Source: a virus
Reading direction: 5' to 3' (one strand)
DNA: 64,000 nucleotides
Virus record (IMG/VR): IMGVR_UViG_3300050014_000916
Span: 5,028 to 69,027 of that record
This document shows positions 519 through 22,300 of the stretch, piece by piece. The notes below the pieces were generated by a model. It worked only from the letters and a program-made list of their open reading frames with translations. It did not search any database and was not told where the DNA came from. The position numbers and the translations under genes were made by a program. How positions within the stretch are numbered: the first letter of the stretch is position 1; every line of letters starts with the position of its first letter.

Positions 519-611
519 ACAGAAGGAAAGGATTCGAACCTTTCAAACCCAACACATACCGTTATTAACTGTAATTTATGCGTGGTAACGTTCCATTTTG
601 TTTACTTCTGT
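519..611 (-). ncRNA. tRNA-like RNA with enlarged anticodon arm and no readable anticodon
   Basis: CAGAAG/CTTCTG acceptor-like stem, T-arm AAAGG-TTCGAAT-CCTTT, ACGCATA/TATGTGT stem around an 18-nt loop. Confidence 0.5.
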
Positions 612-614
612 TTG

Positions 615-700
615 TGATCGCAGTGGGACTCGAACCCACAACGGCATAAAGCACCCTTCTCATTAAAAGTGAGAAGCTCCACCAATTGAGCTATACGATC
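615..700 (-). tRNA. tRNA-Lys(UUU) with long variable arm
   Basis: Anticodon arm TCTCA-CTTTTAA-TGAGA, ~18-nt variable region, T-loop TTCGAGT; 86 nt. Confidence 0.85.
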
Positions 701-864
701 AACAATAATATTAGTTTCAAAGAACTTGTACTCATTTTTTATAGAACATCGTTTTTTAAACGTTTTTCACGGGTAATAAACGTTTTTCATAAAATATGTC
801 TTTTTATACCTATTTTTCATAATCTAAGCGTTTTTATGCAACAATATGCGTTTTTATGCATAAC

Positions 865-893
865 AAAAAACCCGACTCTCAGGGAATCGGGTT
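865..893 (-). terminator. Attenuator terminator 1
   Basis: AACCCGATTC-CCTGA-GAGTCGGGTT then TTTT; lies between leader ORF and tRNAs. Confidence 0.85.
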
Positions 894-920
894 ACTAATA
901 TTTGTATTAAAAGGCAATCA

Positions 921-1013
921 TTAATTTTTACCTTTGGACACAGTATTCCCGATTCCTATAAACTGTTTTTTATAAGATTTTTTTCCGTAATAATATGTTC
1001 CAAAAGTTCTCAT
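921..1013 (-). CDS. Tyr/Lys-rich leader peptide MRTFGTYYYGKKSYKKQFIGIGNTVSKGKN
   Basis: Manual translation; contains GGAATCGGG (948-956), complementary to terminator 5' arm. Confidence 0.8.
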   Translation of the reverse strand: MRTFGTYYYGKKSYKKQFIGIGNTVSKGKN

Positions 1014-1052
1014 TGTTTTATTCTTTAACTATTTCATTAATATTTCAGATCA

Positions 1053-1084
1053 CAAATGTATAGTATAAATACGACATATGCAAA
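1053..1084 (-). promoter_or_regulatory. Bacteroidota sigma70-type promoter for leader 1
   Basis: TACATTTG (-7 box, 1053-1060) and TTTG (-33 box) 20 nt upstream. Confidence 0.65.
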
Positions 1085-9689: not shown

Positions 9690-10153
9690 ATTTTATCTTT
9701 TCTTGCATTTTTTCCTCTATGTGTTTCTGTTTGACTGTGACAATTAGGACATAACATTTTTAAATTTGGTAACAAGTGATTGGTTCTATTTCCGTCAACA
9801 TGATCTAACTCCATTTCCAATTTTTTTCCATGCCACATACCTTTTTGTCCGCATTCCTCACAAACGTTTTTTTTGTATCCTTCCTTAATTAATCTGTTTT
9901 TTAATTTAAATGTTTGATATTCTGGATGCTTGCCTTCAAATATGATTTCTTCAATTGGTATCATCTTTGAAGGTCTTTTTCGTGTACCCTTTCCTGATTG
10001 ATTTGTTTTATAACAGTTTAAAATTATTGCTCTTCGTTTAAAACTATTGAAATGTATTTTTAATTTTGCAGCAGCTTGCGCCATGCTTGTTGATGTTTTA
10101 CATACAGAAATGAAATCTTTATCATTTATTCTGTCTTTAATTTGTTTTGGCAT
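9683..10153 (-). CDS. HNH homing endonuclease
   Basis: CEECG..ELDHVDGNRTNH..NLKMLCPNCHSQT. Confidence 0.9.
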   Translation of the reverse strand: MPKQIKDRINDKDFISVCKTSTSMAQAAAKLKIHFNSFKRRAIILNCYKTNQSGKGTRKRPSKMIPIEEIIFEGKHPEYQTFKLKNRLIKEGYKKNVCEECGQKGMWHGKKLEMELDHVDGNRTNHLLPNLKMLCPNCHSQTETHRGKNARKDKMA

Positions 10154-11631: not shown

Positions 11632-11645
11632 AACACATTTATTTG

Positions 11646-12000
11646 TGGAGGTATGGGGAGTCGAACCCCGTCCAAATATGTGAACAATACGTTTTCTACA
11701 AGTTTATTCAGATTTTCAAATCTAACAAAATATTAACATTTGTACGCAACTGTTATCAAACCGACCAATTTTTAACCTTCTTCGGTGGAAAGGTTCTTTG
11801 TTGTATTTGCTATTTCTTAAGCTGCTATTTCGAGTTCAACATTCTCTGAAACGAAGCTACCTCTTGTTAAAGAAGTGGGAAGGGACATAACGTCCTCTGA
11901 ATTAATTGCATTTATATTCTCGAACATGTTTAAAGCGAATATTCAACCGCTACTTGCTTACTATACCATTCGGTCACACTGTCAAAACCAAATTACCCCC
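11646..12000 (-). ncRNA. ssrA: tmRNA
   Basis: 5' GGGGGTAATTTGGTTTTGAC; 3' GGACGGGGTTCGACTCCCCATACCTCCA; G3-U70; tag ORF 11817-11909 ending ELEIAA-stop. Confidence 0.92.
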
Positions 12001-15699: not shown

Positions 15700-15707
15700 A
15701 AAATTCG

Positions 15708-15783
15708 CAGTCCTGACAGGATTTGAACCTGCAACCCCCTCCCGAATCTGAGAGGGATTCACACCCGTATAAACTACAGGACT
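15708..15783 (-). tRNA. tRNA-like RNA with non-canonical anticodon loop
   Basis: AGTCCTG/CAGGACT-G73, normal T-arm, anticodon arm CCCTCTC-AGATTC-GGGAGGG (6-nt loop). Confidence 0.65.
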
Positions 15784-15865: not shown

Positions 15866-15905
15866 AAATTTCCAACATGTCAAAGAACCTCTACAACCAC
15901 AAAAC

Positions 15906-15939
15906 AAAAAACCCGACTGGATTTAGGACAGTCGGGTTT
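15906..15939 (-). terminator. Attenuator terminator 2
   Basis: AAACCCGACTG-TCCTAAATC-CAGTCGGGTTT + T tract. Confidence 0.85.
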
Positions 15940-15976
15940 CTTTTTTATAAGAAAGGAGGTTGTAATATTCGTTGTA

Positions 15977-16069
15977 TTACCCGACTGTATATAGCTTATC
16001 CTCTTCGGCTGCCCATAATAGGACATCCACCATGAGGACTGCTACCAATATGTCGAATAAATTTTTCAT
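15977..16069 (-). CDS. Leader peptide MKNLFDILVAVLMVDVLLWAAEEDKLYTVG
   Basis: Manual translation; ends in ACAGTCGGGT (15979-15988), complementary to terminator 5' arm. Confidence 0.75.
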   Translation of the reverse strand: MKNLFDILVAVLMVDVLLWAAEEDKLYTVG

Positions 16070-16113
16070 CGTTTTTCTTTTAAATTTGTTTGTCTTTCTA
16101 TTTAAATACTTTG

Positions 16114-16143
16114 CAAAGATAATAAAGTTTTCTGATTTCCAAA
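16114..16143 (-). promoter_or_regulatory. Bacteroidota sigma70-type promoter for leader 2
   Basis: TATCTTTG at 16114-16121, TTTG at 16140-16143. Confidence 0.65.
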
Positions 16144-18428: not shown

Positions 18429-18449
18429 ATTGTTTTTATTTAAAATTAG

Positions 18450-18523
18450 TTGTCCCTGTAGGACTCGAACCTACACTCGCCTGAATCAAAATCAGATGTG
18501 TTAACCAATTACACCAAGGGACA
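18450..18523 (-). tRNA. tRNA-Gln(UUG)
   Basis: TGTCCCT/AGGGACA, loop TTTTGAT. Confidence 0.9.
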
Positions 18524-19517: not shown

Positions 19518-19571
19518 TTTGCAAAGATAGTAATAAAAACAATAAGTCAAAGAACTTTTTATTTTTTGTTG

Positions 19572-19643
19572 TTCCCCCCACAGGGGTCGAACCTGTAGTC
19601 ATCGGGGTCAAAGTCCGATATGTTACCATTACACCAGAGGGGA
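19572..19643 (-). tRNA. tRNA-Gln(UUG)
   Basis: TCCCCTC/GGGGGGA, loop CTTTGAC. Confidence 0.88.
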
Positions 19644-19646
19644 ATA

Positions 19647-20165
19647 TTATACCTGTTCGGGTATATTTTTTTTAATATAATACTTAATCCATTTTCGTAT
19701 AGCATTATCTGAAACACCATATATTTTACCAGTACCAGAATATCCATATTCTTTTATGTTTTGCTGTAATTGTTCATATGACGGACGTTGCGATTTACGG
19801 CTATTTAAACTAATACACGTTAAACACGATTTTGCTCTTCTTCCAATTATATTGCCACATTGACAATATTTATGTGTTTTTATTTTTTTATGTTTTACAT
19901 TTTTACCTGAAAAAGTAGATAGTGTTGCGTTACAATTAGGACAAACGATTTGTAGGTTTTCAATTCTATTATCGGTTTTAATACCATTTATGTGGTCGAG
20001 AATTAAACTCATGTATTTACCACGCCAAGTTTCATTTTGTCCACACAATTCACATATTGGTTGTTTTAAATTTTCTTTATATAGTCTTCTTTTTAAACTA
20101 TTTGTGGATTTATATTTTGAGTTTTCAACTAAAATTAATTCTGTGCGTATCTTAAGTGTTGTCAT
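19647..20165 (-). CDS. HNH homing endonuclease
   Basis: LDHINGIKTDNRIENLQIVCPNCNA; C-terminal HTH. Confidence 0.88.
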   Translation of the reverse strand: MTTLKIRTELILVENSKYKSTNSLKRRLYKENLKQPICELCGQNETWRGKYMSLILDHINGIKTDNRIENLQIVCPNCNATLSTFSGKNVKHKKIKTHKYCQCGNIIGRRAKSCLTCISLNSRKSQRPSYEQLQQNIKEYGYSGTGKIYGVSDNAIRKWIKYYIKKNIPEQV

Positions 20166-20180
20166 TTATGTTTTAATATT

Positions 20181-20258
20181 TGGTTGCCCAACTAAGGCTC
20201 GAACTTAGAAATCTTCAGATTCAGAGTCTGACGTGTTAGCCAATTGCGCCATGTGGCA
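20181..20258 (-). tRNA. tRNA-Gln(CUG), encoded CCA
   Basis: TCAGA-CTCTGAA-TCTGA. Confidence 0.85.
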
Positions 20259-20296
20259 ATGTTTTTGCTGTACATTAAGTAATAAACTAAATTTAG

Positions 20297-20370
20297 GGTG
20301 AAAGGTGAGTTTCGATCTCACTACCTCTTGGTTCACAGCCAAGCACTCTCCCGATTGAGCTACAGTCACC
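20297..20370 (-). tRNA. tRNA-His(GUG)
   Basis: G-1/C73, CTTGG-CTGTGAA-CCAAG. Confidence 0.85.
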
Positions 20371-20373
20371 ATG

Positions 20374-20452
20374 TGGTCGAGATGGTGCGATTCGAACGCA
20401 CGAGTTCTTCTGCTCCCAAAGCAGACGGGGTGACCAACTCCCCAACATCTCG
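20374..20452 (-). tRNA. tRNA-Pro(UGG), encoded CCA
   Basis: CGAGATG/CATCTCG, TCTGC-TTTGGGA-GCAGA. Confidence 0.92.
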
Positions 20453-20455
20453 AAA

Positions 20456-21019
20456 TTATTTCTTTTGAAAATTTTTTATGTATTCATCTATTTTTAATTT
20501 AATAAGATATCTGAATTTACTATGCCAATATTGATGATGTGTCGGACACAATGGAATTAAATTTTCTGGACTATTATTTTTCTTATTTCCATCATAATGA
20601 TGAACTTCTATAATATTTTTTTCATCACAACAAACACATTTCTTTTCGTGATAACGAAAACAAATTGTTCTATATTTTACTTCCGCATTCAAATCATTAT
20701 CGTTTTTATAATTTGGATTTGCTTTCCCTGATCTGAAATATGTGTTTGCACATGCATGTGAACATACTGTTTTTTCTCTTGGATGTCCAGATTTCGTTTC
20801 AAATTCATTATCACATATGGGGCAAACCTTTTTTATAATTAAATATTTTCGTCTTTTGGTTTTTCCTCTATTAAAATGTGTTACATTAAGATTGAAATTT
20901 TTTATTAATTCATTTACTTTTCGTAAACCTGAACCATTTATTTGAAAACCTAATTCACGACAAACATCGCTCTTACTATCGCATTTTGTGATAATATTTT
21001 TAATTTTATTAATATTCAT
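20456..21019 (-). CDS. HNH homing endonuclease
   Basis: CVCC..VHHYDGNKKNNSPENLIPLCPTHH. Confidence 0.88.
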   Translation of the reverse strand: MNINKIKNIITKCDSKSDVCRELGFQINGSGLRKVNELIKNFNLNVTHFNRGKTKRRKYLIIKKVCPICDNEFETKSGHPREKTVCSHACANTYFRSGKANPNYKNDNDLNAEVKYRTICFRYHEKKCVCCDEKNIIEVHHYDGNKKNNSPENLIPLCPTHHQYWHSKFRYLIKLKIDEYIKNFQKK

Positions 21020-21163: not shown

Positions 21164-21239
21164 GGTGTTAGAGGGGAATCGAACCCCCAAACCCGTGATT
21201 CACAGTCACGTGAAGAATACCAACATCTACAACTAACAC
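21164..21239 (-). tRNA. tRNA-His(GUG)
   Basis: GTGTTAG/CTAACAC-C73, CGTGA-CTGTGAA-TCACG; irregular D-arm. Confidence 0.8.
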
Positions 21240-21241
21240 AG

Positions 21242-21317
21242 TCGAGTAGGCAGGACTCGAACCTGCGAGTTCTCCTGAATCCAGATCAGGCGGGGTAGCC
21301 AACTCCCCAACTACTCG
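21242..21317 (-). tRNA. tRNA-Pro(UGG) with C33 and A37
   Basis: CGAGTAG/CTACTCG, CCTGA-TCTGGAT-TCAGG. Confidence 0.82.
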
Positions 21318-21326
21318 AAAAATATG

Positions 21327-21421
21327 TCAGGGTGGTGGGGTTCGAACCCACGCACGACAACACCTTTGTGCCGTGACTGGTTTCCAAGACCAGCAGCTTC
21401 AACCAACTCGCTCACACCCTG
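21327..21421 (-). tRNA. tRNA-Pro(UGG) with very long variable arm (95 nt)
   Basis: CAGGGTG/CACCCTG, CTGGT-CTTGGAA-ACCAG, variable stem CACGGCA..TGTCGTG. Confidence 0.85.
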
Positions 21422-21443
21422 AATACATCAAAGAACTAAAATG

Positions 21444-21472
21444 AAAAAACCCCATTCGATATGAATGGGGTT
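21444..21472 (-). terminator. Attenuator terminator 3
   Basis: AACCCCATTC-ATATC-GAATGGGGTT + TTTT. Confidence 0.85.
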
Positions 21473-21507
21473 CTTCTGTTTAACCTAAAACTTTTTCAAT
21501 GAAAAAA

Positions 21508-21576
21508 TTAAGCATAGAATCCCCATTCCAGTGTTTGTGGATGCTGTTGGGGGTTTATGTTCATTAAATTTTTCAT
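21508..21576 (-). CDS. Pro/Gln/His leader peptide MKNLMNINPQQHPQTLEWGFYA
   Basis: Manual translation; contains GAATGGGG (21521-21528), complementary to terminator 5' arm. Confidence 0.82.
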   Translation of the reverse strand: MKNLMNINPQQHPQTLEWGFYA

Positions 21577-21610
21577 CGTCTTACAAATAACATTTATTAA
21601 AAACTCTTCG

Positions 21611-21641
21611 CAAAGATATACATTAAAATCATAAATACAAA
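21611..21641 (-). promoter_or_regulatory. Bacteroidota sigma70-type promoter for leader 3
   Basis: TATCTTTG at 21611-21618, TTTG 19 nt upstream. Confidence 0.65.
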
Positions 21642-21667
21642 CTTTTTTCAAAAAAAATTAAATTATT

Positions 21668-22300
21668 TTATTTATATCCTAATTGCCTCAATATATTTTC
21701 AACATCAATTCTGATTTGAGATATGCTGATTTGAGATGTCTGTGGATTATAACCCAAGTAAGAGAACCAGCTTTTAAATGCAGGTGCAAACTTCTCAGGA
21801 GTATTTACCAGTTTTAATATAGGTGCAATTGTCTTATAGGTAGTATCAGCATATTGTGGTTGTTGTGTTACGTTTTGCTGTTGCTGTTGTTGCTGCTGTG
21901 TATTTGCTGGTGCTGCTGCATTAGCTGCTCCCGCAGGTGCTACTGGTGCTGCAATTTCAGTTATGCCTGATTGCTGCTGATCAAGTCGTGTTAATCTATT
22001 GTTTATATAATCATTTTTAATTCCAGCATTATCCAAGAATTCTTTTTTTGCTGCTGTCATATCGCTTGAGCCAAAACCCTCACCTTCGCTCCAATCAGAA
22101 AAACTATCGACAGTTTCTTCTGCTGCTTGATCAAATAACTGCCTGTTACCATTATATTCTTCTTGCGATATAAGTCCTGTGCGTATTGCACTCATGATTA
22201 AATGTTCTGTACTGAATGGTGCGTCTTCATTTAATTTGTTCTTAAAGTCTGGGTTAACTTTTCCCATTACTTCAAATAATCTTTGCTTTTTGTCTGACAT
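21668..22300 (-). CDS. Probable internal head protein (QRLFEVM leader, Q/A-rich linker)
   Basis: MSDKKQRLFEVMGKVNPDFKNKLNE. Confidence 0.65.
   Translation of the reverse strand: MSDKKQRLFEVMGKVNPDFKNKLNEDAPFSTEHLIMSAIRTGLISQEEYNGNRQLFDQAAEETVDSFSDWSEGEGFGSSDMTAAKKEFLDNAGIKNDYINNRLTRLDQQQSGITEIAAPVAPAGAANAAAPANTQQQQQQQQNVTQQPQYADTTYKTIAPILKLVNTPEKFAPAFKSWFSYLGYNPQTSQISISQIRIDVENILRQLGYK

What the first reader, a model, noticed from the sequence alone, without database searches (positions are those of the whole stretch)
21327..21641. PQQHPQ leader upstream of a Pro x3 / His x2 / Gln x3 tRNA array
Leader 21508-21576 reads MKNLMNINPQQHPQTLEWGFYA, with codons CCC CAA CAG CAT CCA CAA. All eight tRNAs from 21421 down to 18450 are Pro(UGG), His(GUG), Gln(CUG) or Gln(UUG). 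GAATGGGG(A)TTCT in the leader pairs with AGAA-CCCCATTC of the terminator. The match covers both Gln codons. This is the cleanest instance.
Basis: partly seen in the sequence, partly recalled or inferred. Interest (0 to 1): 0.92.

Follow-up and report, generated by a model that had tools for sequence, protein, structure and literature searches.

The report
Codon-matched leader gating phage tRNA genes
A large phage of Bacteroidota places a tiny translated ORF spelling Pro-Gln-Gln-His-Pro-Gln and a switchable transcription stop in front of its Pro, His and Gln tRNA genes, so it probably makes these tRNAs only when ribosomes read those codons slowly, a trp-operon-style control that I could not find described for tRNA genes.

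Summary
On the minus strand lie, in order: a Bacteroidota-type promoter; a 22-codon ORF, MKNLMNINPQQHPQTLEWGFYA; a strong intrinsic terminator; a GTTCTTTGA box; and eight tRNAs that are only Pro(UGG), His(GUG), Gln(CUG) or Gln(UUG). The end of the leader copies the terminator's 3' arm and can pair with its 5' arm.

The unit is one of three in this window. It belongs to a widespread phage class.
- A pattern scan of viral contigs put a tRNA within 60 nt of the box in 64 of 119 hits. In cellular genomes the figure was 2 of 121, within 80 nt.
- All 55 distinct units carry an ORF of at least 22 codons.
- Leader residues match the downstream tRNAs far better than family-level permutation allows: 0.50 against 0.36, 0 of 100,000 permutations.
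- Each leader pairs best with its own terminator.
- A homologue in L063 gains an Arg codon where Arg tRNAs join the array.

My best reading is a ribosome-mediated attenuator that senses the supply of the tRNAs it controls. No expression data exist. This scan has noted the same class before on other DNA. Ten literature searches found no published account.

The parts
21611..21641 (-). Bacteroidota-type promoter: TTTG, 19 nt, TATCTTTG. The transcription start is inferred near 21605.
   Evidence: Bipartite pattern hit at 21641. -7 box at 21618-21611. It is one of only 7 full bipartite matches on the minus strand of the contig.
21508..21576 (-). Leader ORF of 22 codons plus stop: MKNLMNINPQQHPQTLEWGFYA*
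   Evidence: Close relatives keep the frame through an in-frame 6-nt indel.
21535..21552 (-). Regulatory codon block CCC CAA CAG CAT CCA CAA (P Q Q H P Q)
   Evidence: One of 2 runs of six or more P/H/Q codons in 138,054 six-frame codon positions.
21516..21529 (-). Antiterminator strand (segment 2): GGAATGGGGATTCT, a copy of the terminator's 3' arm lying inside the last codons of the leader
   Evidence: Duplex of -16.6 kcal/mol with its own 5' arm, against a best of -11.2 with 28 foreign arms. Forms 11 pairs in the nascent-RNA fold.
21444..21476 (-). Intrinsic terminator (segments 3 and 4): 14-pair stem, 5-nt loop, T6
21428..21436 (-). GTTCTTTGA box, the boxA type found in rRNA-operon leaders of Bacteroidota. 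Its end lies 6 nt before the first tRNA.
   Evidence: 6 copies on the minus strand and 0 on the plus strand of the contig. Extended consensus from 51 distinct units. The same box stands upstream of 16S in Bacteroidota genomes.
21326..21421 (-). tRNA-Pro(UGG), 96 nt, with a long variable arm
   Evidence: Rfam 54.4 bits.
21241..21317 (-). tRNA-Pro(UGG)
21164..21239 (-). tRNA-His(GUG)
   Evidence: ARAGORN only.
20456..21019 (-). HNH endonuclease ORF inserted in the array. A second GTTCTTTGA (21120-21112) precedes it.
   Evidence: Pfam HNH_2 and HNH_3. In relatives L262 and L263, one search places the first seven tRNAs within about 900 nt, which leaves no room for such an ORF.
20374..20452 (-). 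tRNA-Pro(UGG)
   Evidence: ARAGORN only.
20296..20369 (-). tRNA-His(GUG)
20181..20258 (-). tRNA-Gln(CUG)
19647..20165 (-). Second HNH endonuclease ORF inserted in the array
   Evidence: Pfam HNH, E = 1.1e-6.
19571..19643 (-). tRNA-Gln(UUG), the last tRNA before the next promoter
19522..19551 (-). Internal full promoter (TTTG, 18 nt, TATCTTTG) whose -33 part lies inside a third GTTCTTTGA copy. It heads the ATP-grasp ORF and the last tRNA.
18449..18523 (-). tRNA-Gln(UUG). It may be transcribed from the 19551 promoter as well.
15880..16143 (-). Sister unit B: promoter, leader MKNLFDILVAVLMVDVLLWAAEEDKLYTVG (16069-15977), terminator (about 15939-15906), box (15888-15880), then the Asp tRNA array
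   Evidence: The family has 12 members with in-frame indels only.
717..1084 (-). Sister unit C: promoter, leader MRTFGTYYYGKKSYKKQFIGIGNTVSKGKN (1013-921), terminator (893-865), box (725-717), then Lys(UUU), Tyr, Lys(CUU)
   Evidence: YYYGKKSYKK is one of 2 windows with 8 of 10 K/Y in the contig.

Best explanation
This is a ribosome-mediated (leader-peptide) transcription attenuator that gates a phage tRNA operon.

Transcription starts at the TTTG/TATCTTTG promoter. A ribosome translates the 22-codon leader.
- If Pro, Gln and His codons are decoded quickly, the ribosome runs on to the end of the ORF and covers GGAATGGGGATTCT. The terminator hairpin then forms and RNA polymerase stops before the tRNAs.
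- If the ribosome lingers on PQQHP (A site at codons 9-13), or no ribosome arrives, that segment is free. It pairs with the terminator's 5' arm and polymerase reads through.

The read-through transcript next carries an rRNA-operon-type boxA, which probably recruits host Nus factors and protects the long untranslated tRNA transcript.

The products are the very tRNAs whose shortage is sensed, so the loop is a negative feedback on decoding capacity for these codons.

Shown: the anatomy, its recurrence, its covariation and its fold geometry. Inferred: translation of the leader, kinetic competition between the two structures, boxA function, and the physiological signal.
For: (1) Anatomy at the stated coordinates.

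(2) The own-terminator antiterminator scores -16.6 kcal/mol, against a best of -11.2 for 28 foreign arms.

(3) Footprint masking on the nascent RNA gives 11 antiterminator pairs with no ribosome or with the A site at codons 7-12. It gives 8 pairs at codon 13 and 0 from codon 14 to the stop.

(4) No TAnnTTTG lies on the minus strand between 21611 and 19529, so seven tRNAs have no -7 box of their own.

(5) The class is real.
- 64 of 119 viral-contig hits of GGGTTTTTT-N(2-30)-GTTCTTTGA have a same-strand tRNA within 60 nt. In cellular genomes 2 of 121 do, within 80 nt.
- 55 of 55 distinct units have an ATG ORF of at least 22 codons ending 30-110 nt before the end of the T-run. Shuffles give 10.3 +/- 3.0.
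- 36 of 55 have TAnnTTTG upstream, against 3.35 in shuffles.

(6) Leader content tracks array content.
- Over 28 leader families the mean fraction of leader residues with a downstream tRNA is 0.502. Permuted pairings give 0.360 +/- 0.016, and 0 of 100,000 permutations reach the observed value.
- Arrays with a Trp, Tyr or Glu tRNA have that residue in the leader in 13 of 13, 10 of 10 and 10 of 10 families.
- At codon level, 191 of 251 codons match under strict wobble, against 160.4 expected.

(7) Antiterminators covary with terminators across families: mean -13.6 against -9.2 kcal/mol, Wilcoxon p = 1e-6.

(8) Cognate residues sit upstream of the masking boundary: 355 of 674 before it and 70 of 185 after it, p = 2e-4.

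(9) Homologues of this leader keep the block and change it with the array.
- L262, L263 and L265 read PQPQQHPQ before the same array.
- L046 reads QPQPQQHPQ before Pro Pro His Gln His Gln.
- L063 reads QQPRHLQPQ before Arg Arg Pro His Gln Gln. Its antiterminator extension also differs from the window's.
Against: - There are no expression or termination data.
- On the full-length leader RNA the terminator is the minimum-energy structure under every masking (14 pairs). Read-through therefore has to be kinetic. I recall the same being true of the trp attenuator.
- No protector (1:2) hairpin competes. Without translation the fold predicts read-through, which differs from the trp paradigm.
- By the coarse residue-fraction score this unit alone is not above permuted pairings (0.29 against 0.36), because its tRNA set has only three amino acids. 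Its support comes from the clustered run and from homologues.
- CCC is not read by UGG under strict wobble.
- The eighth tRNA has its own upstream promoter, and two HNH genes and two more GTTCTTTGA copies interrupt the array.
- In 7 of the 24 family representatives that form the antiterminator, unit C among them, a ribosome at the stop codon does not mask it.
- Leader families may share deep ancestry, so the permutation test is not made of fully independent points.
- The crAss001 tRNA array I read has a promoter directly upstream and no leader.
Confidence: 0.8

Rival explanations
1. The unit is a genuine attenuator, but the signal is general translation capacity or amino-acid starvation. Any failure of ribosomes to reach the leader's end would count, rather than supply of the specific tRNAs. 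The codon match would then be only a by-product of phage codon use.
For: The fold predicts read-through whenever no ribosome covers segment 2, including with no translation at all. An attenuator cannot tell uncharged tRNA from absent tRNA.
Against: A by-product would not make leader composition track array composition between families. It would not add an Arg codon where Arg tRNAs join the array. It would not place cognate residues before the masking boundary.
Confidence: 0.1
2. This is an rRNA-operon-like leader without regulation. The hairpin plus box would be the phage's copy of the host rrn leader (boxB-like hairpin plus boxA). The small ORF would be untranslated, or would encode a micro-protein with a function of its own.
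For: Host-phylum rrn leaders show a promoter, a hairpin and the same GTTCTTTGA box. The Asp-family leaders look like a hydrophobic helix.
Against: - The hairpins are GC-rich stems followed by T6, that is, terminators.
- ORFs of at least 22 codons are present in 55 of 55 units, against 10.3 in shuffles.
- Leader ends copy their own terminator arm.
- Within the Asp family the residues shuffle among the cognate set while the frame is kept. This fits composition constraint, not sequence constraint.
Confidence: 0.06
3. Chance: an ordinary terminator ends the upstream gene, an accidental short ORF lies nearby, and the tRNAs are transcribed independently.
For: The generic TAnnTTTG motif is not enriched in the window (82 found, 108.6 expected). 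AT-rich DNA holds many short ORFs.
Against: - A full promoter lies between the upstream gene and the leader.
- The P/H/Q run is one of 2 in the contig.
- There is no -7 box between the terminator and seven of the tRNAs.
- The layout recurs in 64 of 119 viral hits, with matching leaders.
Confidence: 0.03

Closest known systems
Leader-peptide attenuators of amino-acid biosynthetic operons (trp, his, leu, thr, ilv, pheA leaders of enterobacteria; the multivalent thr and ilv leaders are the nearest). Established knowledge, recalled.
   Same: Both have a promoter, a short ORF enriched in regulatory codons, an antiterminator that overlaps the ORF's end and excludes a downstream intrinsic terminator, and ribosome position as the switch.
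   Different: - The controlled genes are tRNAs, so the output feeds back directly on the sensed quantity.
- Related leaders sample up to 12-13 different amino acids once or twice each, not one amino acid many times.
- No 1:2 protector hairpin is seen.
- An rrn-type boxA follows the terminator.
- The unit is phage-borne and uses a Bacteroidota promoter.
Attenuator of the pheST (phenylalanyl-tRNA synthetase) operon of E. coli (recalled, not checked in a call)
   Same: A translation-apparatus gene is controlled by a leader peptide written in its own cognate codons.
   Different: It controls a synthetase protein, senses one amino acid, and is cellular.
T-box riboswitches
   Same: They sense the state of a specific tRNA through a codon-like match and switch between terminator and antiterminator.
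   Different: T-boxes bind uncharged tRNA directly and need no translation. No Rfam family, T-box included, reaches gathering score on 21400-21700.
rRNA-operon antitermination leader (boxA bound by NusB and NusE; function recalled)
   Same: - The exact GTTCTTTGA box lies 60-125 nt upstream of 16S in 4 rrn leaders from 2 Bacteroidota genomes.
- Three further genomes carry close variants.
- 3 of 121 cellular pattern hits sit 86-160 nt before 16S.
   Different: Here the box follows a translated attenuator and precedes tRNAs. Binding of Nus factors was not tested.
Earlier notes of this scan on other phage genomes (for example e1-5381190, e1-6032651, e1-5876626)
   Same: They describe the same layout and reach the same reading: leader, terminator, boxA, then a tRNA array, with leader content matching the array.
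   Different: They concern other DNA and are AI notes, not publications. This window adds a narrow three-amino-acid leader and homologues in which the leader changes with the array.

Membership tests
Ribosome-mediated (leader-peptide) transcription attenuator | Short ORF between the promoter and the controlled genes | tested here: met
   A 22-codon ATG ORF begins 35 nt after the -7 box. In the wider set, 55 of 55 units have an ORF of at least 22 codons, against 10.3 in shuffles.
Ribosome-mediated (leader-peptide) transcription attenuator | Leader enriched in codons tied to the controlled function | tested here: met
   The PQQHPQ run is one of 2 in 138,054 codon positions. The family-level permutation gives 0 of 100,000.
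Ribosome-mediated (leader-peptide) transcription attenuator | Intrinsic terminator between the leader and the controlled genes | tested here: met
   A 14-pair stem plus T6 at 21476-21444.
Ribosome-mediated (leader-peptide) transcription attenuator | Mutually exclusive antiterminator whose 5' strand is masked by a ribosome that finishes the leader | tested here: met
   11 pairs with the A site at codons 7-12 and 0 pairs from codon 14 to the stop; the pairing is specific to the unit's own terminator.
Ribosome-mediated (leader-peptide) transcription attenuator | Protector or pause hairpin (1:2) that enforces termination when the leader is not translated | tested here: not met
   In the nascent-RNA fold without a ribosome the antiterminator still forms (11 pairs). 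The same holds in 24 of 29 family representatives. The trp leader has this feature, but not every attenuator does.
Ribosome-mediated (leader-peptide) transcription attenuator | Read-through rises when the cognate charged tRNA is limiting | not testable with these tools
   No RNA run holds the stretch. This needs a reporter or Term-seq.
T-box riboswitch | Conserved T-box fold with specifier loop | tested here: not met
   No Rfam family reaches gathering score on 21400-21700. The best hits have E >= 0.16 and belong to unrelated families.
rrn-type boxA antitermination site | The sequence motif shared with host-phylum rRNA-operon leaders, lying on the transcript downstream of a promoter | tested here: met
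   Exact GTTCTTTGA stands upstream of 16S in Pseudarcicella (1 operon) and Thermonema (3 operons). Two Flavobacterium genomes and Pedobacter carry variants.
rrn-type boxA antitermination site | Binding of NusB and NusE, with antitermination activity | not testable with these tools
   Inferred from established knowledge of rrn leaders (recalled).

The most novel reading that the evidence does not exclude
Phages of Bacteroidota carry a whole class of self-referential decoding sensors. Each block of phage tRNA genes sits behind a leader 'barcode' written in the codons that block reads. The block is on by default and is shut off only when ribosomes decode those codons fast enough. tRNA output is thus matched, block by block, to shortage of exactly those tRNAs. 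Such a shortage could follow a codon-usage mismatch with the host, host shut-off, or an attack by a host anticodon nuclease. The leader co-evolves with the array as tRNAs are gained and lost. This would be the first attenuation control of tRNA genes and a natural multiplexed sensor of tRNA supply.
Probability: 0.6. Interest if true: 0.9.

Novelty: new variant of a known kind. Interest (0 to 1): 0.85.

Why it matters
Why phages carry tRNA genes, and how they deploy them, is an open question. This unit suggests that expression is conditional and self-correcting: the phage measures decoding speed on a test peptide and answers with the matching tRNAs.

- It extends leader-peptide attenuation from amino-acid metabolism to the tRNA pool itself.
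- It shows leaders that report on many amino acids at once.
- It couples an attenuator to an rRNA-type antitermination box.

The idea is directly testable with a reporter in a Bacteroidota host. The leaders could also serve as compact natural sensors of the availability of specific tRNAs.

Tried and rejected
**Expression evidence.** The look-up of sequencing runs listed 20 holders, all DNA from peat metagenomes. No RNA holder was listed.

**Rfam.** There is no family at the leader. The whole-window run gave only tRNAs and a tmRNA.

**Named phages.**
- blastn of the window's array and of two IMG/VR units against the phage collection hit only tRNA genes and HNH genes.
- Phage crAss001 has a promoter directly upstream of the tRNA array I read, with no leader. 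TTCTTTGA is not over-represented in crAss001 (17 copies against 17 in the control) or in IAS virus (18 against 16). The design is therefore not universal in crAss-like phages.

**GTTCTTTGA as a promoter for the tRNAs.** Rejected. No TAnnTTTG follows it before the tRNAs, and the box ends mostly 14-22 nt before the tRNA. The copy at 19555 does overlap the -33 part of a full promoter.

**E. coli pheV.** I recalled that this tRNA-Phe gene might have a leader-peptide attenuator. The K-12 sequence shows about 105 nt between yqgA and pheV, with no such ORF or terminator. Passages of PMC7049720 say pheU and pheV have 3-4 nt leaders. The recollection is dropped.

**Family alignment.** The alignment of the five unit-A homologues (A2) has an invariant core helix, so I did not run the count of structure pairs on it. 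Covariation was instead tested between families.

**Literature.**
- Ten searches were seen as listings with abstract starts only.
- Passages were read in PMC3082878 (irrelevant) and PMC7049720.
- None describes leader-peptide attenuation of tRNA genes.
- Subscription journals and supplementary files were not searchable, so an account may exist there.

**Included against my reading.** Three families that look unlike the rest (L008, L039, L086) were kept in every statistic.
Full report
**Observation**

All features lie on the minus strand.
- A bipartite Bacteroidota-type promoter (TTTG, 19 nt, TATCTTTG; 21641-21611) is one of only seven full matches on that strand of the 69,027-bp contig that holds the window.
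- Thirty-five nt downstream an ATG opens a 22-codon ORF, 21576-21508, which translates to MKNLMNINPQQHPQTLEWGFYA*. Codons 9-14 are CCC CAA CAG CAT CCA CAA.
- The best terminator-like site of the region follows at 21476-21444: 14 pairs, a 5-nt loop and T6. It dominates the fold of the leader RNA (z = -2.97 against shuffles).
- A GTTCTTTGA box sits at 21436-21428.
- ARAGORN then calls eight tRNAs down to 18449: three Pro(UGG), two His(GUG), one Gln(CUG) and two Gln(UUG). Rfam confirms six of them.
- In all six frames of the contig (138,054 codon positions) there are two runs of six or more P/H/Q codons. One is this leader; the other is a poly-Q stretch of the upstream ORF.

**Surroundings**
- Two HNH endonuclease ORFs (20456-21019 and 19647-20165) interrupt the array. 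An R2K ATP-grasp gene stands between the last two tRNA-Gln genes.
- Close relatives L262, L263 and L265 share 87-90 % protein identity in the ATP-grasp gene. They have the same tRNA order. In L262 and L263 the first seven tRNAs span only about 900 nt, so the HNH genes are probably insertions.
- On the minus strand no TAnnTTTG lies between the leader promoter's -7 box (21611) and 19529. Seven tRNAs therefore have no -7 box of their own.
- The eighth tRNA follows a full promoter at 19551.

**Sister units in the window**
- The Asp array is preceded by a promoter, the leader MKNLFDILVAVLMVDVLLWAAEEDKLYTVG, a terminator and the box.
- The Lys(UUU)/Tyr/Lys(CUU) array is preceded by MRTFGTYYYGKKSYKKQFIGIGNTVSKGKN, a terminator and the box.
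- GTTCTTTGA occurs six times on the minus strand and never on the plus strand.

**A widespread class**

I scanned IMG/VR for GGGTTTTTT-N(2-30)-GTTCTTTGA.
- In 64 of the 119 a same-strand tRNA starts within 60 nt of the box.
- The same pattern in one genome per prokaryote species gave 121 sites. Only 2 had a tRNA within 80 nt, and one of those is a 5.8-kb MAG contig carrying the Asp-type leader.
- Of 55 distinct viral units with enough upstream sequence, all 55 have an ATG ORF of at least 22 codons ending 30-110 nt before the end of the T-run. Shuffles give 10.3 +/- 3.0, with a maximum of 22.
- 36 of the 55 have TAnnTTTG 5-90 nt upstream of the ATG. Shuffles give 3.35.

**Leader content mirrors array content**

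I picked the leader ORF by a rule that ignores its content: the longest ATG ORF of at least 15 codons ending 30-110 nt before the end of the T-run. One of the 64 viral units, L111, had no such ORF because only 130 nt of upstream sequence were held. The remaining 63 viral units and the 3 window units fall into 29 leader families, or 28 after merging window unit C with L031.

Examples:
- MKLVNKQIVKHVIQFCQNWYIRLFASSGVLS precedes Phe Ile Gln Lys Val Tyr Cys His Arg Trp Leu Asn.
- MKKMLDILVVLSVAVLLWDDAAEEKLHEVG precedes Asp Asp Glu x3 Val x3 Leu x3 Ala x4 Trp.
- MKQNSTHNVSNLPTNVGQSWFTIKGQDCRKFRVLNKM precedes Asn Lys Trp Thr Ile Pro Phe Gly Asp Gln.

Tests, with one representative per family:
- The mean fraction of leader residues whose amino acid has a tRNA downstream is 0.502. 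When arrays are permuted among families it is 0.360 +/- 0.016, and 0 of 100,000 permutations reach the observed value.
- Arrays that contain a tRNA for Trp, Tyr, Glu, Gln, Cys, His or Pro have that residue in the leader in 13/13, 10/10, 10/10, 13/14, 10/11, 9/10 and 7/8 families.
- Under strict wobble, 191 of 251 leader codons of multi-box amino acids are readable by an anticodon in the array. Synonymous usage in long ORFs of the same loci predicts 160.4.

For unit A alone the coarse fraction is unremarkable (0.29 against 0.36), because only three amino acids are involved. Its support is the contiguous run and its homologues.

**Homologues of this leader**
- L262 and L263 read MKNLVNIVPQPQQHPQILEWGNYA, and L265 reads MKNLINIVPQPQQHPQSLEWGNYA. 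That is eight consecutive P/Q/H codons. They differ from the window by an in-frame 6-nt indel.
- L046 reads MKNLVNIQPQPQQHPQGC*, with the stop codon overlapping GAATGGGG. It precedes Pro Pro His Gln His Gln.
- L063 reads MKSLMTQQPRHLQPQVEWGRYA and precedes Arg Arg Pro His Gln Gln. An Arg codon appears in the block where Arg tRNAs head the array.
- The core GAATGGGG / CCCCATTC is invariant in these five.
- The flanking extension differs on both strands: GGGG(A)TTCT with AGAACCCC in the window, and GGGGTCG with CGGCCCC in L063.

**The switch**

Between families the terminators differ, and each leader's end copies its own terminator's 3' arm.
- The duplex energy of a leader with its own 5' arm averages -13.6 kcal/mol. 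With the other families' arms it averages -9.2 (Wilcoxon p = 1e-6). The own arm is the best partner in 11 of 29 representatives.
- For unit A the values are -16.6, against a mean of -7.9 and a best of -11.2.

I folded the nascent RNA up to the terminator loop with a 30-nt ribosome footprint masked.
- The antiterminator has 11 pairs with no ribosome or with the A site at codons 7-12.
- It has 8 pairs at codon 13 and none from codon 14 to the stop.
- So a ribosome held on P Q Q H P leaves the antiterminator free. One that has moved on, or sits at the stop, blocks it.
- On the complete leader RNA the terminator is always the minimum-energy structure, so the decision must be kinetic. I recall that this also holds for the trp attenuator.

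Across the 29 representatives:
- 24 form the antiterminator without a ribosome.
- In 17 of those 24 a ribosome at the stop removes more than half of its pairs.
- Seven do not fit this simple picture, window unit C among them.
- Residues cognate to the array are enriched before the masking boundary: 355 of 674 before it and 70 of 185 after it, Fisher p = 2e-4.

**The box**

From 51 distinct units the motif extends to roughly GTTCTTTGAcATaTTGGaa. It ends mostly 14-22 nt before the first tRNA, which is too close for it to be a -33 promoter element. I then read the sequence upstream of 16S in five Bacteroidota genomes.
- Exact GTTCTTTGA lies 60-125 nt before 16S in Pseudarcicella (one operon) and Thermonema (three operons).
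- Two Flavobacterium genomes carry GTTCCTAGACATATTGAA at that place.
- Pedobacter carries GTTCTTAAAAG, a variant also seen in the phage relative L267.
- Three of the 121 cellular pattern hits sit 86-160 nt before 16S.

The box is therefore the rrn-leader boxA of the host phylum. That it recruits Nus factors to protect the untranslated tRNA transcript is an inference from what I recall of rrn leaders.

**Mechanism, with status of each step**
1. Transcription starts at the promoter (inferred from the motif).
2. The leader is translated. This is inferred from three things: the ORF is universal in the class, indels are in-frame only in the 12-member Asp family and in unit A, and composition is constrained while sequence is not.
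3. Slow decoding of Pro, Gln or His codons leaves segment 2 free to pair with segment 3 (geometry shown).
4. Polymerase reads through, the transcript acquires boxA, and the tRNAs are made (inferred).
5. More tRNA speeds decoding and restores termination (inferred).

No protector hairpin competes, so an untranslated leader should also read through. The default state is on.

**Rivals**
- Chance is excluded by the recurrence and the statistics.
- An unregulated rrn-like leader does not explain the ORF, its codon content or the copy of the terminator arm.
- A general translation-capacity sensor is a variant of the main reading. It cannot be separated from it without experiments, but the tracking of array content argues for specificity.

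**Comparison and novelty**

The unit works like the leader-peptide attenuators of amino-acid operons and meets four of their five sequence-level features. It lacks the 1:2 hairpin. It is not a T-box. What is new is the target (tRNA genes), the multi-amino-acid barcode leaders, the coupling to boxA, and the phage setting.

Ten literature searches, seen as listings only, and two papers read in passages turned up no description. Subscription journals and supplements could not be searched. This scan already holds 152 notes of the same class in at least 116 genomes, with follow-up agents reaching the same reading. Those are AI notes, not independent evidence, and I re-derived everything here from my own calls.

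**Limits**
- There are no RNA data.
- The host is unknown beyond the phylum-type promoter and boxA.
- The leader families are not fully independent.
- tRNA lists are truncated at locus ends, which weakens the match rather than inflating it.
- tRNA identities rest on ARAGORN anticodons. The first tRNA-Pro is 96 nt long with a long variable arm, so which amino acid it carries is open.

Noticed in passing
window 11643-12000 (-): A full-length tmRNA gene (Rfam 94.4 bits; ARAGORN tag peptide ending ...ELEIAA) lies in the phage contig among the tRNA arrays.
   Followed up: partly
window 21326-21421, 614-700 (-): The first tRNA after attenuators A and C has a class-I anticodon (Pro UGG, Lys UUU) on a body with a long variable arm (96 and 87 nt). 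The 96-nt tRNA-Pro is conserved in L262, L263 and L265. Which amino acid it accepts is open.
   Followed up: no
window 520-612 (-): A tRNA-like stretch lies between tRNA-Lys(UUU) and tRNA-Tyr. It has an acceptor-like ACAGAAG/CTTCTGT pairing and a GGTTCGAATCC T-loop. Neither ARAGORN nor Rfam calls it.
   Followed up: no
window 15707-15783 (-): ARAGORN calls a tRNA with a four-base anticodon (gatt) inside the Asp array. Rfam scores it 38.6 bits. L044 has a comparable odd tRNA (gcgc) at the same relative place, and L265 has one (taag) before its Trp tRNAs.
   Followed up: no
codons 6-8 of most leaders, e.g. window 21560-21555, 16053-16048: A nucleotide motif close to ACATAT (read as HI, NI or DI) is conserved about 16-24 nt after the ATG in most of the 29 leader families, whatever tRNAs follow. 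In the Asp family GTCCTATTATGGG is also conserved at nucleotide level. Neither is explained by the attenuator model.
   Followed up: partly
window 21120-21112 and 19555-19547 (-): Further GTTCTTTGA copies lie inside the array. One follows tRNA-His and a hairpin and precedes an HNH gene. The other overlaps the -33 part of a full promoter. L262 and L263 also have internal copies.
   Followed up: partly
window 20456-21019, 19647-20165 (-): HNH homing-type endonuclease genes sit between tRNA genes. No ORF of that size fits between the same tRNAs in the close relatives L262 and L263. Similar cysteine-rich ORFs lie at about 9700-10150 and 1-280.
   Followed up: partly
window 21576-21562 with 21511-21498 (-): The start-codon region of leader A (ATGAAAAATTTAATG) is nearly complementary to the spacer just after its stop codon (TTAATTTTTTCAT), and the two pair in the MFE fold. 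The pairing is kept in L262. It may sequester the start codon after one round of translation.
   Followed up: no
L263 10500-12670, L265 9300-12590: In close relatives the Asp-type leader precedes a full Asp Asp Glu x3 Val x2 Leu x4 (Ala x2 Trp x2) array. The window keeps the same leader but only Asp-type tRNAs directly downstream. The leader has therefore outlived part of its array, or the array was rearranged.
   Followed up: partly
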